From Escherichia phage 236Ecol005PP: DNA of 64,000 nt. Where the stretch lies: the sequence record PP434423.1; one strand, given 5' to 3'. Under the pieces are notes generated by a model. That model made no database searches and was not told where the DNA came from. It saw only the letters and a program-made list of their open reading frames with translations. Positions 4,755 through 46,695 of the stretch are shown here, in pieces (the first letter of the stretch is position 1; the number at the start of each line of letters is the position of its first letter). Position numbers and translations under genes: made by a program.

Positions 4755-4969
4755 TGGAAGGTTTAATTGAAGCTATTAAATCAAACGACCTCGTAGCCGC
4801 TCGTAAATTATTTGCTGAAGCCATGGCTACAAGAACGATTGATTTAATTAAAGAAGAAAAAATCGCTATCGCTCGTAATTTCTTAATCGAAGGTGAAGAA
4901 CCTGAAGACGACGAAGACGAGGATGATGACGAAGACGACGAAGACGACGAAGACGAGGATGATGAATAA
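4754..4969 (+). CDS. 67: prohead core protein with acidic C-terminal tract
   Basis: 71-aa ORF, ATGA-coupled to gene 20 stop; C-terminal run of about 24 Asp/Glu residues. Confidence 0.7.
4897..4966 (+). repeat. GAC/GAA/GAT codon-level low-complexity tract encoding the poly-acidic tail
   Basis: Visible run gaagacgacgaagacgaggatgatgacgaagacgacgaagacgacgaagacgaggatgatgaa; creates spurious poly-Ser ORF on the opposite strand. Confidence 0.85.
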
Positions 4970-23960: not shown

Positions 23961-23964
23961 CAAT

Positions 23965-23995
23965 GGGGACCTTTCGGTCCCCATATTTTTATTTA
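23965..23995 (+). terminator. intrinsic terminator after gene 54
   Basis: GGGGACC-TTTC-GGTCCCC hairpin plus T-run. Confidence 0.6.
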
Positions 23996-24279
23996 CGGAA
24001 TGAAATAAAAGCAGCAACTGAAGCAACTAAACTGTCTTCAATATAAACTTCAATTTTTACCGGAGCTTCTGACTCAAATTTACCTGTTACTACACCTTGG
24101 AAAATACTTTCAGTCTGTTCTGGCTTTGAAAAATTTTCAGAAGGAAAAATTCCGAACTTTTTATCTGTTCCAAAAATTTTGATAAATTCATCATAAACTG
24201 CTTCATTAAAAGCATTATCAGCAGGAATAACGCCTTCAACTACAAGTTCTTGACCTAAAAAGCGCAAAGAAGATTTCAT
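23989..24279 (-). CDS. hypothetical protein (96 aa)
   Basis: ORF starting 8 nt downstream of the promoter/SD cassette at 24288-24340. Confidence 0.55.
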   Translation of the reverse strand: MKSSLRFLGQELVVEGVIPADNAFNEAVYDEFIKIFGTDKKFGIFPSENFSKPEQTESIFQGVVTGKFESEAPVKIEVYIEDSLVASVAAFISFRK

Positions 24280-24287
24280 TTTGTGTT

Positions 24288-24340
24288 CCTCATGTTATGT
24301 CAGTAAGATTACTATAACACAACATGAGGGACTTGTAAAC
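24288..24340 (-). promoter_or_regulatory. T4 early-promoter-like cassette (-35 GTTTAC, -10 TATAGT) inside an inverted repeat that contains the SD
   Basis: - strand reads GTTTACAAGTCCCTCATGTTGTGTTATAGTAATCTTACTGACATAACATGAGG; inverted repeat CCTCATGTT/AACATGAGG; second copy at 38143-38195. Confidence 0.55.
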
Positions 24341-24697
24341 TACATTTTGAACTTTTTAGTACGCGTAATAGGCATGCGTCGATTTTATACTGTTTCATTG
24401 TTTGAAGAGCAGTATCAAAAACAGCATTAATGACACCAATTGGATTTCCGCCCAAGTTTTTAAGCTTAACTAATGATAGTTTCTCATTAACACCTATCAT
24501 TACGATATGCATCATTTTATCGCCCGGCTTAACGTTTTATTCGTATCACCGCCAGAGGTGTATGTACAAAATCTAAATCCAGGAAGCACACTTTCTTCAC
24601 CGGCTTGAATAGCAAAAATTTGAGGTATTTTATGCTTAGGATTTAAGTTAACAACCGGCGCCGAAGCGCCGTCAAATAATTCTGTAATAAGTTCCAT
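24312..24697 (-). pseudogene. frameshifted paralog of the Alt N-terminal region
   Basis: Track ORFs 24512..24697 and 24312..24515 together align with Alt residues about 2-125 (MELITELFD...KIPQIF...GFRFCTYTSGGDTN / MMHIV...KQYKIDACLLRVLKS) in two frames. Confidence 0.65.
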
Positions 24698-26752: not shown

Positions 26753-26801
26753 ATCCTCTCTAGTGTTTATTCTATTTATAAAATTAAAGGCCCGAAGGCC
26801 T

Positions 26802-31522: not shown

Positions 31523-31597
31523 TTTATTCTCCTTTGTTTGTGTAAGATAATACTATTACAAAGGAACCATACTGTAAACAACTTTGTGCAATCTTTG

Positions 31598-35418: not shown

Positions 35419-35419
<1 letters not shown>
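35222..35419 (-). CDS. hypothetical protein (65 aa)
   Basis: ORF coupled to pseT. Confidence 0.4.
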
Positions 35420-36763
<1,344 letters not shown>

Positions 36764-37290: not shown

Positions 37291-37640
37291 TTAGAAAGGT
37301 CCTGGATGTCTTCTGCGAACTTGTTGAAGGAGTTGTTGATTTGTTTTTCAACCAATCCTGGCTTATGAGCCACCACATCCGCCTTCTTTGCGTCTTTGCG
37401 CAGTTTTTCATTTTCACGCTCAATAGCAGCAATTGCCTCACGATTTTTATTATTCATCGCATCAATATAATTATACTGAATTCGCAAATTATTTAATGCT
37501 AAAGCGTTTTCATTGGCCGTTTTTGTAATTTCTACAACAGACGTTTCTAATCTTTCAATTTTACTTTTTAAAATTAAAGAAGTTCCGCCCAATGCAATTA
37601 CAATTAATAGCAAGCCTGCTGTCGTATTACTTAATTGCAT
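37287..37640 (-). CDS. membrane-anchored coiled-coil protein (117 aa)
   Basis: Hydrophobic N-terminal segment AGLLLIVIALGGTSLIL followed by charged heptad-like sequence. Confidence 0.5.
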   Translation of the reverse strand: MQLSNTTAGLLLIVIALGGTSLILKSKIERLETSVVEITKTANENALALNNLRIQYNYIDAMNNKNREAIAAIERENEKLRKDAKKADVVAHKPGLVEKQINNSFNKFAEDIQDLSK

Positions 37641-38137
37641 AAAGTTTTAATAACCTCTATAATATCGTCTTGAGAAAGACCGTTAATTAAAATATGATGT
37701 TCAGCCGGAGATTTAGAAATTTTAAAGCATGCCTCAACATCTTCTGCCATATCTGATGCGCTACGATTTGGATTACTAATTCCAAGACGATGTTTTCCCG
37801 TCAAAGGATTAACGATGATATAGCATTTACAGTTATTAATATGAACATTAGGTTGAGTCTGATTAATGAACACATCACAATCATATTTCGCAAGCTGATT
37901 TTCTAAAAAGACTTTCATCTCCTCAACTGCATCAGGAAGCATATCACGGGCTTGCTCAAGACGACGATTTCGATATTCTTTAATGGTCGTTTTCCGCTTG
38001 ACTTGCTTAGCTAAATCTTTCTTAAGATCGGTGATATATCCAACTCGACGATTTCCTTTAAACACAGAAATCCCATCTGTAGTATCACCGTATGCTTCAA
38101 CGACCATTTCAGTAGTAATAAGCTGTAAATCCATCAT
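37631..38137 (-). CDS. alc: possible Alc (host transcription shutoff) homolog
   Basis: 168-aa ORF in the position and with the size of T4 alc (167 aa as recalled); sequence identity not verified. Confidence 0.45.
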   Translation of the reverse strand: MMDLQLITTEMVVEAYGDTTDGISVFKGNRRVGYITDLKKDLAKQVKRKTTIKEYRNRRLEQARDMLPDAVEEMKVFLENQLAKYDCDVFINQTQPNVHINNCKCYIIVNPLTGKHRLGISNPNRSASDMAEDVEACFKISKSPAEHHILINGLSQDDIIEVIKTLCN

Positions 38138-38142
38138 AAAGT

Positions 38143-38195
38143 CCTCATGTTATGTCAGTAAGACTACTGTAACACAACACGAGGGACTTGTAAAC
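38143..38195 (-). promoter_or_regulatory. second copy of the early-promoter/inverted-repeat cassette
   Basis: - strand GTTTACAAGTCCCTCGTGTTGTGTTACAGTAGTCTTACTGACATAACATGAGG ending 6 nt before the start codon; about 90 percent identical to 24288-24340. Confidence 0.55.
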
Positions 38196-38198
38196 AGC

Positions 38199-39786
<1,588 letters not shown>

Positions 39787-45892: not shown

Positions 45893-46146
45893 CATTATGT
45901 TCAGATAAGGTCGTTAATCTTATCCCGGAATTATATCCAGCTGCATGTCACCATACAGATCAGACTATATCTCCATCTTGATGAAGCAAGATGTCTATCG
46001 TTTCGAGTCACTTGACCCTACTCCCCAAAGGGATAGTCGTTAGGCATTTAGTTCAAAAGAACATTTAGCACGGGATTGTCTACTAGAGAGGTTCCCCGTT
46101 TAGATAGATTACAAGTATAAGTCACCTTATACTCAGGCCTCAATTA
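45893..46146 (-). other. group I self-splicing intron in td, ORF-less (about 254 nt)
   Basis: Exon 1 ends ...GTT TTC TTG GGT then TAATTGAGGCCTGAGTATAAGGTGACTTATACTTG...; intron ends ...CTGAACATAATG; both ends match the T4 td intron as recalled; no ORF inside. Confidence 0.8.
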
Positions 46147-46695
46147 ACCCAAGAAAACATCTACACTTCTTTGGTACCATTGTAAATCAAGATAACCATT
46201 ACGCACATTAAACTGATAGAACATATGACAGGGCGGTAATGCCATTTGATTGATTTCAGCTGGATTCCATGCTGAAACGATTTGACGTCGATCAGTTGGT
46301 AATTTTTTAATACGATCAATAGTTTCAACTAATTGATCCACACCACCGAAATCACGCCATTGTTTACCGTATATAGGACCAAGTTCACCACTATGATATC
46401 CTAGGTCTTTAGCCTGGTTTTCATAGTTATCGTCCCAAATAGTTTTACCTTGAATAAGACTACCATGAGTGCGAAGACGTAAATCATTAACATTGGTAGA
46501 ACCGGAAATAAACCATAGAAGCTCAGCAATGCAAGCTTTCCAAGCGAGCTTCTTAGTCGTTACTGCAGGAAAACCTTTAGTTAAATCCCAACGTAATTTA
46601 GTACCGAACAAAGCAATTGTTCCTGTGCCTGTTCGGTCATCGGTTTCATAGCCATTTTCAAAAATGTCTTTAATTAAATCTTGGTATTGTTTCAT
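46147..46695 (-). CDS. td: thymidylate synthase, exon 1
   Basis: 183 codons ending ...PPCHMFYQF...QRSVDVFLG (TS active-site Cys region). Confidence 0.85.

What the first reader, a model, noticed from the sequence alone, without database searches (positions are those of the whole stretch)
24288..24340. Repeated ~53-bp early-promoter/inverted-repeat cassette (copy 1 of 2)
On the - strand the element reads GTTTAC-N17/18-TATAGT followed by an SD, and it is embedded in the inverted repeat CCTCATGTT...AACATGAGG. Transcripts starting at this promoter would expose the SD, while read-through from upstream would fold the SD (GAGG) into the stem. A second copy, about 90 percent identical, is at 38143-38195, so two unrelated ORFs share the same regulatory cassette.
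Basis: partly seen in the sequence, partly recalled or inferred. Interest (0 to 1): 0.5.

Follow-up and report, generated by a model that had tools for sequence, protein, structure and literature searches.

The report
Early promoter built inside SD-masking hairpin
Two near-identical 54-bp cassettes in this T4-type phage put a strong early promoter inside an RNA hairpin that hides the ribosome-binding site, so the downstream genes (alc and alt.-3) are probably translated only from their own early transcripts; this is an early-promoter version of a trick already known for T4 late genes.

Summary
The window is a Tequatrovirus (phage T4 relative). The two cassettes (24287-24340 and 38142-38195, minus strand) are 51/54 identical. 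One lies upstream of alt.-3, the other upstream of alc. T4 and 499 related genomes carry exactly these two copies.

Each cassette reads TTTACA-N17-TA(T/C)AGT with a TGn motif, then a leader and the Shine-Dalgarno (SD) sequence GAGG.

The hairpin is stronger than reported: about 18 bp, -23 to -26 kcal/mol. Its 5' arm sits in the promoter spacer and its 3' arm ends in the SD. Opening the ribosome site costs about 18 kcal/mol in read-through RNA, but 2-3.5 kcal/mol in RNA started at the cassette promoter.

Upstream of alc, six other genera keep the same layout with different stem sequences (10 of 14 pairs compensatory).

Across promoter hairpins, helix mismatches are G.U 20:1 over A.C. The selected structure is therefore sense-strand RNA, which only read-through transcripts can form.

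The alt.-3 copy is a Tequatrovirus-specific acquisition.

The cassette fits the published PeSL cassettes and works like the T4 e/soc/49/I-TevI hairpins, with an early rather than a late promoter. Translation control remains inferred. Interest is moderate.

The parts
24287..24340 (-). Cassette copy 1 (from the -35 box to the SD), between alt.-2 and alt.-3
24334..24339 (-). -35 hexamer TTTACA of copy 1 (part of GTTTAC)
24311..24316 (-). -10 hexamer TATAGT of copy 1, preceded by TGT (extended -10). The alt.-2 stop codon TAG (24314-24312) lies inside it.
24310..24329 (-). 5' arm of the hairpin in copy 1. It covers the spacer and the -10 box, so it is absent from RNA started at this promoter.
24288..24305 (-). 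3' arm of the hairpin in copy 1, ending in the SD GAGG (24291-24288). The predicted start site is about 24304.
23989..24279 (-). alt.-3 ORF (DUF5498), the gene served by copy 1
24312..24515 (-). alt.-2 ORF, a decayed duplicate of Alt residues 64-118. Its last 10 codons and its stop codon lie inside copy 1.
38142..38195 (-). Cassette copy 2, between rnlA (gene 63) and alc
38189..38194 (-). -35 hexamer TTTACA of copy 2
38166..38171 (-). -10 hexamer TACAGT of copy 2 (TATAGT in T4). The T-to-C change adds one C-G pair to the inner stem.
38165..38189 (-). 5' arm of the hairpin in copy 2
38139..38160 (-). 3' arm of the hairpin in copy 2, containing the SD GAGG (38146-38143). The predicted start site is about 38159.
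37631..38137 (-). alc ORF (PF17527), the gene served by copy 2. T4 annotates the second ATG (38134 here) as the start.
38199..39323 (-). rnlA (gene 63), a source of read-through RNA into copy 2. Its stop codon ends 3 nt before GTTTAC.
26773..26780 (-). Late-promoter motif TATAAATA, 20 nt upstream of the alt start codon. It is a likely source of late read-through RNA into copy 1.
   Evidence: alt is a late gene in T4
23963..23984 (.). Bidirectional terminator-like hairpin after alt.-3. It marks the end of the transcription unit.

Best explanation
Each cassette is a T4-type sigma-70 early promoter built inside an RNA hairpin.

RNA polymerase arriving from upstream transcribes both arms. For copy 1 this RNA comes from the late alt promoter. 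For copy 2 it comes from the middle promoters of nrdA, nrdB and the nrdB intron, passing through denA and rnlA. The resulting roughly 18-bp helix buries the SD GAGG, so alt.-3 or alc is poorly translated from these long mRNAs.

RNA polymerase that initiates at the cassette's own promoter starts about 7 nt after the -10 box. That point lies downstream of the 5' arm, so the leader is unstructured and is translated freely.

The net effect is that Alc and Alt.-3 are made only while the early promoters fire, in the first minutes of infection, whatever read-through occurs later.

- **Shown here:** the sequence, the geometry, the thermodynamics, the covariation and the sense-strand RNA signature.
- **Taken from the literature:** the early expression class of both genes and the existence of upstream middle and late promoters.
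- **Inferred:** the exact start site and the translational block.

The alc copy keeps an ancestral design. The alt.-3 copy was acquired in the Tequatrovirus ancestor, probably by recombination bounded by the shared GTTTACA and CATGAGGA motifs.
For: - **Repeat.** The 54-nt repeat is 51/54 identical, with none expected by chance.
- **Distribution.** There are 997 places in 499 Tequatrovirus records, about two per genome, and T4 is among them.
- **Promoter.** The match to the T4 early-promoter consensus is found only on the early strand.
- **Hairpin strength.** dG is -23.4 to -28.6 kcal/mol with z-scores of -4.5 to -5.3. The leader of own-promoter RNA folds at 0 to -1.8 kcal/mol.
- **SD accessibility.** The probability that the SD is unpaired is at most 0.008 in read-through RNA. 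Opening the ribosome-binding region costs 18.3 and 18.5 kcal/mol there, against 2.3 and 3.5 kcal/mol in own-promoter RNA.
- **Conservation across genera.** Upstream of alc, the same architecture occurs in Gelderlandvirus, Karamvirus, Jiaodavirus, Dhakavirus, Bragavirus and Winklervirus, each with a different stem sequence.
- **Covariation.** On a stem-anchored alignment, 90.8% of cells are paired and 10 of 14 pairs have changes on both sides. There are 26 such cells against 8.9 +/- 2.3 in shuffles (0 of 500 shuffles reach it). Slid controls give 37-49% paired.
- **RNA signature.** Non-Watson-Crick juxtapositions inside promoter hairpins are 20 G.U to 1 A.C, as expected for a sense-strand RNA structure.
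- **Large loops.** Loops of 15-21 nt are tolerated so that the 3' arm reaches the SD. This suggests that the SD is the target.
- **T4 expression data.** alt.-3 and alc are early in RNA and protein. alt is late, alt.-1 and alt.-2 are middle, and rnlA is early-RNA/late-protein.
- **Sources of read-through.** There is a late-promoter motif upstream of alt. Middle promoters lie upstream of rnlA (PMC2988021). No terminator-like site lies between them and the cassettes.
- **Precedent.** T4 genes e, soc, 49 and I-TevI use the same principle; the block is 100-fold for e (PMC3014915).
Against: - No transcription start, RNA structure or translation measurement exists for these two sites in anything I could read.
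- At the alc site, Providencia phage PSTCR6 has a hairpin that leaves the SD free. A Mosigvirus-like phage has only a small hairpin inside the spacer. SD masking is therefore common but not universal.
- In T4, about as many early promoters carry hairpins that do not reach the SD. The primary selected role of promoter hairpins could be something else.
- In copy 1, ribosomes translating alt.-2 run through the 5' arm and stop inside the helix. That would open it, if alt.-2 is translated at all.
- The -10 box of copy 2 in this phage (TACAGT) has two mismatches to the consensus.
Confidence: 0.6

Rival explanations
1. This is the published PeSL reading. The stem-loop is mainly a transcription terminator or attenuator that insulates the downstream early unit from upstream transcription. 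The conserved cassette also serves as a site for homologous recombination that shuffles genes. Overlap with the SD would be incidental.
For: - PeSLs are defined as an early promoter plus a stem-loop plus an SD. One RB49 stem-loop reduced downstream lacZ as strongly as rrnB T1 (PMC2839356).
- PeSLs are also reported for the PST/T4 pair (PMC4122927).
- Copy 1 adjoins a Tequatrovirus-specific rearrangement, alt.-1/alt.-2.
- Many T4 promoter hairpins do not touch the SD.
- Cassettes are multi-copy in other genera.
Against: - No U-tract follows either hairpin, and the terminator scan does not flag them.
- The stems are AU- and GU-rich, unlike the polyG/polyC stems tested in RB49.
- Large loops are tolerated so that the 3' arm reaches the SD in seven genera.
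- Recombination between the two copies would delete essential genes (30 and 31).
Confidence: 0.17
2. This is a translational-coupling device. On long mRNAs the hairpin opens only when a ribosome finishes the upstream ORF (alt.-2 or rnlA). Downstream translation is then tied to upstream translation rather than switched off.
For: - The alt.-2 stop codon lies inside the helix of copy 1.
- The rnlA stop codon ends 3 nt before GTTTAC, about 10 nt before the 5' arm.
- The same spacing is seen in other genera.
Against: - Alt.-2 protein was not detected in T4 proteomics, and it is a decayed duplicate.
- For rnlA, a terminating ribosome would reach only the base of the stem.
- alc and alt.-3 are early in protein, whereas gp63 protein is late. 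That pattern is the opposite of coupling.
Confidence: 0.1
3. The hairpin is an RNA stability or processing element. It would form a protective 3' end for upstream mRNAs after processing, or a nuclease site that separates the two units.
For: It is a sense-strand RNA hairpin placed at the junction between two genes. T4 mRNA decay is heavily regulated (PMC3014915).
Against: - At 14+4 bp the helix is short for RNase III.
- No GGAG RegB site is present; the SD here is GAGG.
- This reading does not explain why the 3' arm consistently ends in the SD.
Confidence: 0.06
4. The feature acts at the DNA level. The inverted repeat would be a cruciform or a protein-binding site that modulates or shuts off the early promoter.
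For: - The repeat spans the -10 box.
- The mechanism of early-promoter shut-off is described as not understood (PMC3014915).
Against: - Mismatches in the helices are 20 G.U to 1 A.C, an asymmetry that DNA pairing would not produce.
- Stem sequences differ between genera, so no conserved operator sequence exists.
Confidence: 0.04

Closest known systems
PeSL (promoter-early stem-loop) cassettes of T4-like phages (Arbiol et al. 2010, PMC2839356; Comeau et al. 2014, PMC4122927)
   Same: - Both are repeated intergenic modules of roughly 50-100 bp made of a sigma-70-type early promoter, a stem-loop, an SD and a start codon.
- A stem-loop overlapping the -10 box is one of the described subclasses.
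- PeSLs are reported for the PST/T4 pair with the consensus TTTACW-N17-TAYWAT, which both copies here match closely (the fifth base of the -10 hexamer is G, not A).
   Different: - The papers treat the stem-loop as a terminator or attenuator and as a recombination site. Translation is not discussed.
- For PST/T4 the stem-loops are described as lying just upstream of the promoter. Here the helix encloses the -10 box and the start site and ends in the SD.
- The two copies lie 13.9 kb apart across essential genes, so they are not a shuffling pair.
T4 e (lysozyme), soc, 49 and I-TevI translation-initiation hairpins bypassed by an internal late promoter (reviewed in PMC3014915 and PMC2988022)
   Same: - A helix sequesters the SD in transcripts coming from upstream.
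- A promoter placed within or after the 5' arm yields transcripts that lack that arm and are translated.
   Different: - The internal promoter here is an early sigma-70 promoter, not a gp55 late promoter.
- The temporal logic is therefore reversed: expression is confined to the first minutes instead of being delayed to late times.
- The element is duplicated almost exactly at two loci.
T4 early promoters (UP/-35/TGn/-10 'uber' promoters; PMC2988021)
   Same: The cassette has GTTTAC at -35, a 17-nt spacer counted from TTTACA, TGn and TAnnnT at -10. It lies on the early strand and the downstream genes are early.
   Different: Identity between the two copies extends through the whole spacer and the transcribed leader up to the SD. 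That is far beyond what a promoter consensus requires.

Membership tests
PeSL cassette | Sigma-70-like early promoter (-35 box, about 17-nt spacer, -10 box) | tested here: met
   TTTACA-N17-TATAGT in copy 1 and TTTACA-N17-TACAGT in copy 2, both with TGn. The downstream genes are early in T4. Promoter activity itself was not measured.
PeSL cassette | Stable stem-loop within or next to the promoter | tested here: met
   dG is -23.4 to -28.6 kcal/mol with z-scores of -4.5 to -5.3. The helix overlaps the spacer and the -10 box.
PeSL cassette | SD and start codon at the 3' end of the motif | tested here: met
   The SD GAGG lies 8 nt (alt.-3) or 5 nt (alc) before the ATG.
PeSL cassette | Repeated in the genome, often next to indels or variable genes | tested here: met
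   There are two near-identical copies per genome. Copy 1 adjoins the Tequatrovirus-specific alt.-1/alt.-2 insertion. T4 has 38 related promoter cassettes.
PeSL cassette | AT-rich tract upstream of the -35 box | tested here: inconclusive
   The 20 nt upstream of copy 1 are about 75% A+T. For copy 2 the figure is about 55%, with the A/T-rich tract further upstream.
PeSL cassette | Stem-loop terminates or attenuates upstream transcription | not testable with these tools
   There is no U-tract and no hit in the terminator scan. A reporter or in vitro assay is needed.
Promoter-bypassed SD-sequestering hairpin (T4 e/soc/49/I-TevI type) | SD and/or AUG paired in a stable helix in long transcripts | tested here: met
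   The probability that the SD is unpaired is at most 0.008, and the opening cost is about 18 kcal/mol. The helix is supported by covariation.
Promoter-bypassed SD-sequestering hairpin (T4 e/soc/49/I-TevI type) | Internal promoter whose start site lies downstream of the 5' arm | tested here: inconclusive
   The geometry fits: the 5' arm covers the spacer and the -10 box, and the predicted +1 is 7 nt after the -10 box. No mapped 5' end is available.
Promoter-bypassed SD-sequestering hairpin (T4 e/soc/49/I-TevI type) | Internal promoter is a T4 late promoter (TATAAATA) | tested here: not met
   There is no TATAAATA in either cassette. The promoter is of the early sigma-70 type.
Promoter-bypassed SD-sequestering hairpin (T4 e/soc/49/I-TevI type) | Read-through transcripts from upstream exist | tested here: inconclusive
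   A late-promoter motif lies upstream of alt, published middle promoters lie upstream of rnlA, and no terminator-like site intervenes. No RNA data were examined directly.
Promoter-bypassed SD-sequestering hairpin (T4 e/soc/49/I-TevI type) | Translation measurably lower from long than from short transcripts | not testable with these tools
   Only thermodynamic estimates are available.

The most novel reading that the evidence does not exclude
Promoter-embedded, sense-strand RNA hairpins may be a genome-wide design principle of T4-type early promoters.

In T4, 11 of 38 early-promoter matches carry an uninterrupted stem of at least 12 bp that joins the spacer to the transcribed leader. Only 0.7% of random windows do.

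In about seven or eight of the promoters the helix masks the SD. These serve alc, alt.-3, regB, 30.8, motB.2, nrdC.8, ndd.4 and perhaps mobD.5.

This would gate translation by transcript origin, so that a set of immediate-early proteins can be made only from their own promoters. It would contribute to the rapid decline in synthesis of many early proteins once the early promoters shut off, whatever middle or late read-through follows. It would also assign a translational function to elements that the PeSL papers describe only as terminators and recombination sites.
Probability: 0.35. Interest if true: 0.6.

Novelty: new variant of a known kind. Interest (0 to 1): 0.4.

Why it matters
Alc is the T4 factor that stops host transcription, and its timing matters. 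A promoter placed inside its own SD-masking hairpin would confine Alc synthesis to the first minutes without any trans-acting factor. That reverses the logic known for T4 lysozyme.

The same design recurs at several other T4 early genes, including regB. It may therefore be a general and largely overlooked layer of early-gene control in the best-studied phage.

It is also a compact part for synthetic biology: one gene with two transcript origins and two translation states. If the effect on translation proves small, the element remains an ordinary PeSL-type promoter cassette.

Tried and rejected
- **IMG/VR scan.** A scan for the 15-mer GTTTACAAGTCCCTC gave 62 stretches of DNA. Only nine loci (11 with the two reference loci in the script output), all upstream of alt.-3 or alc in T4-like contigs, carried the element. 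The rest were chance matches. It revealed no third context.
- **Sequence-based alignment.** MAFFT plus RNAalifold on the raw promoter regions put the stems out of register and found only 6 weak pairs. I replaced this with per-sequence folds and with a stem-anchored alignment scored with slide and shuffle controls. Dhakavirus had to be left out of that alignment because MAFFT gapped it.
- **First statistic for the T4-wide test.** Counting spacer-to-downstream pairs in the minimum-free-energy folds did not discriminate, because the background was 36% at 10 or more pairs. I replaced it with uninterrupted stem length.
- **Rfam.** No family covers the cassette.
- **Literature.** I found no genome-wide mapping of T4 transcription start sites. 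Miller et al. 2003 and Desplats et al. 2002 are not held. I therefore cannot exclude that the older T4 literature (Liebig and Ruger 1989; Wilkens and Ruger 1994) already noted these hairpins.
- **Ongoing gene conversion between the two copies.** I considered this and see no need for it. Both sites share one consensus across the genus, with only private substitutions. That fits a single duplication followed by normal conservation.
- **Intrinsic terminator, RegB site and DNA cruciform.** I considered and rejected all three, for the reasons given under the rival explanations.

Full report
**Identity of the window.** The region around the finding is 99.9% identical to Escherichia phage Pu-Krd-SF4 and 95-99% identical to hundreds of Tequatrovirus genomes. 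Early genes run on the minus strand.
- Copy 1 lies between alt.-2 (24312-24515) and alt.-3 (23989-24279).
- Copy 2 lies between rnlA, also called gene 63 (38199-39323), and alc (37631-38137).
- Pfam confirms Alt.-3 as DUF5498 and Alc as PF17527, so the two downstream ORFs are unrelated.

**Check of the observation.** The two copies are 24287-24340 and 38142-38195 on the minus strand. They are 51/54 identical, and no match occurred in 100 shuffles. Similarity starts exactly at GTTTAC and stops at GAGGA; the flanks are unrelated.

The promoter reads TTTACA-N17-TATAGT in copy 1 and TTTACA-N17-TACAGT in copy 2, each with TGn before the -10 box. All ten GTTTAC-N16-18-TANNNT matches in the window are on the early strand, against 2.6 expected.

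The full helix has 14 pairs plus 4 more after a 2-nt bulge. Its free energy (dG) is -23.4 kcal/mol for copy 1 and -25.8 to -28.6 for copy 2, with z-scores of -4.5 to -5.3. The stop codon of alt.-2 lies inside the -10 box of copy 1.

**Distribution.** A blastn search of the 54-mer against 50,697 phage records finds 997 places in 499 records. That is about two per genome. All are at least 90% identical and all are T4-like phages by organism name. T4 itself has both copies, 53/54 identical to each other. An IMG/VR scan found only these two contexts.

**Geometry and energetics.** Positions below are counted from the G of GTTTAC.
- The 5' arm covers positions 12-31, which are the spacer and the -10 box.
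- The 3' arm covers positions 36-53 and ends in the Shine-Dalgarno (SD) sequence GAGG at positions 50-53.
- A start site 7 nt after the -10 box falls at about position 37. RNA made from the cassette's own promoter therefore lacks the 5' arm.
- In read-through RNA the SD is unpaired with probability at most 0.008. Opening the stretch from SD-3 to AUG+5 costs 18.3 kcal/mol (copy 1) and 18.5 kcal/mol (copy 2).
- In own-promoter RNA the same opening costs 2.3 and 3.5 kcal/mol.

**Sources of read-through RNA.** A late-promoter motif TATAAATA lies 20 nt upstream of the alt start codon, and alt is a late gene in T4. Published middle promoters (PnrdA, PnrdB, PI-TevIII) lie upstream of denA and rnlA. 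No terminator-like site lies between these promoters and the cassettes, and neither hairpin is followed by a U-tract.

**Expression in T4.** In the supplement of PMC9697503, alt.-3 and alc are early in both RNA and protein. alt is late. alt.-1 and alt.-2 are middle in RNA and were not detected as protein. rnlA is early in RNA and late in protein. The expression class therefore changes across each cassette, as expected if it contains an active early promoter.

**Comparative evidence at alc.** Gelderlandvirus, Karamvirus, Jiaodavirus, Dhakavirus, Bragavirus and Winklervirus all have the same layout upstream of alc: GTTTAC, a 5' arm in the spacer, TAnnnT, then a 3' arm ending in GGAG or GAGG.
- The stem sequences differ between genera.
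- dG ranges from -17 to -25 kcal/mol and z-scores from -2.2 to -5.2.
- Own-promoter leaders fold at only 0 to -2.5 kcal/mol.
- Stem positions 13-17 cycle through CG, GC, AU and UA.
- On a stem-anchored alignment, 90.8% of cells pair and 10 of 14 pairs have changes on both sides. There are 26 such cells against 8.9 +/- 2.3 in shuffles (0 of 500 reach it). Slid controls give 37-49% paired. This alignment was built around the structure, so the slide control is the fairer comparison.
- There are exceptions. Providencia phage PSTCR6 has a hairpin that leaves the SD free. A Mosigvirus-like phage has only a small hairpin inside the spacer. VR7 has an extra ORF between rnlA and alc.

**Origin of the alt.-3 copy.** In Karamvirus, Gaprivervirus, Dhakavirus, Mosigvirus and Marfavirus, alt is followed directly by alt.-3. 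The promoter there has only a 4-6-bp hairpin inside the spacer and does not mask the SD.

Tequatroviruses instead carry alt.-1 and alt.-2, a decayed duplicate of Alt residues 2-118. Its homology to Alt ends about 10 nt before the cassette. The alt.-3 copy is therefore derived and the alc copy keeps the ancestral design.

The alt.-3 leaders of other genera already contain ACATGAGGA. The transferred tract is thus bounded by pre-existing GTTTACA and CATGAGGA similarity. That is how PeSL-mediated exchange is described (PMC2839356).

**Wider context in T4.** T4 has 38 matches to GTTTAC-N18-TAnnnT on the early strand. Of these, 11 have an uninterrupted stem of at least 12 bp joining the spacer to downstream sequence, against 0.7% of random windows.
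- In one class the helix reaches the SD: alc, alt.-3, regB, 30.8, motB.2, nrdC.8 and ndd.4.
- In another class the helix spans only the -10 box.
- Inside these helices, non-Watson-Crick juxtapositions are 20 G.U to 1 A.C. This points to an RNA structure on the sense strand. Because the 5' arm lies upstream of the start site, only read-through transcripts can form it.

**Comparison with what is known.** The cassette meets the descriptive definition of a PeSL. Those papers interpret the stem-loop as a terminator or attenuator and as a recombination site, and they do not mention translation.

Mechanistically, the closest precedent is the SD-sequestering hairpin of T4 e, soc, 49 and I-TevI, which is bypassed by an internal late promoter. 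Here the internal promoter is an early one, which reverses the temporal outcome. The 2010 T4 reviews I could read do not list alc, alt.-3 or regB among such cases.

**Verdict.** The translational effect and the start site remain inferred.

I rate this a new variant of a known kind, of moderate interest. The general principle is known and the element sits in T4 itself. The early-promoter version, its cross-genus covariation and its recurrence across T4 early genes appear under-described and are easy to test.

Noticed in passing
window 35760-36042 (within the pseT ORF, 35419-36468, minus strand): There is a perfect in-frame 141-nt tandem duplication. It lengthens polynucleotide kinase/phosphatase to 349 aa (301 aa in T4) and doubles a 47-residue segment that includes the DVDGT phosphatase motif. 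It could be real or an assembly artefact.
   Followed up: partly
window 31550-31579 (minus strand) and downstream leader: A third early promoter in the window has the same design. The spacer segment TTCCTTTGT pairs with ACAAAGGAG, the SD of the downstream gene (the 30.8 homologue). dG is -14.4 kcal/mol.
   Followed up: partly
window 47998, 34748 and 31187 (minus strand): Three early promoters have stems of about 11-15 bp that enclose the -10 box but leave the SD free. These are a second class of promoter-embedded hairpin whose function is unclear.
   Followed up: partly
L081, T4 coordinate about 20612 (upstream of dmd), and L082, T4 coordinate about 57990 (upstream of mobD.2): T4 carries another pair of near-identical early promoter-hairpin cassettes: GTTTACAAGCTGACAAGACTATGGTATAGTAGTCTTGTCGG and GTTTACAAGTTGACAAGATTATGGTATAGTAATCTTGTCAAC.
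   Followed up: no
L071-L075, about positions 440-500 (upstream of alt.-3 in five other genera); also T4 2458, 50973 and 167086: These early promoters have a 4-6-bp hairpin entirely inside the -35/-10 spacer, with an AAGGA-type loop. The stems change in a compensatory way between genera (GCAC/GTGC, CCACA/TGTGG, ACACAT/ATGTGT). The function is unknown.
   Followed up: no
window 24312-24697 (minus strand): alt.-1 and alt.-2 are a decayed duplicate of Alt residues 2-58 and 64-118 (about 61-62% identity). The duplicate is absent from the five other genera checked, where alt.-3 directly follows alt.
   Followed up: yes
window 45941-46156 (minus strand): There is a group I intron (Rfam RF00028, 72.7 bits). 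It is probably the td or nrdB intron of T4-type phages.
   Followed up: no
window 4886-4965: A 9-nt periodic GAAGACGAC-type repeat encodes an acidic Glu/Asp-rich tract.
   Followed up: no
(Dhakavirus and Karamvirus records): The alc cassette of Dhakavirus matches 3-4 places per genome, and Karamvirus records show 2 places each in the Gelderlandvirus alc-cassette search. Duplication of this kind of cassette therefore seems to recur.
   Followed up: no
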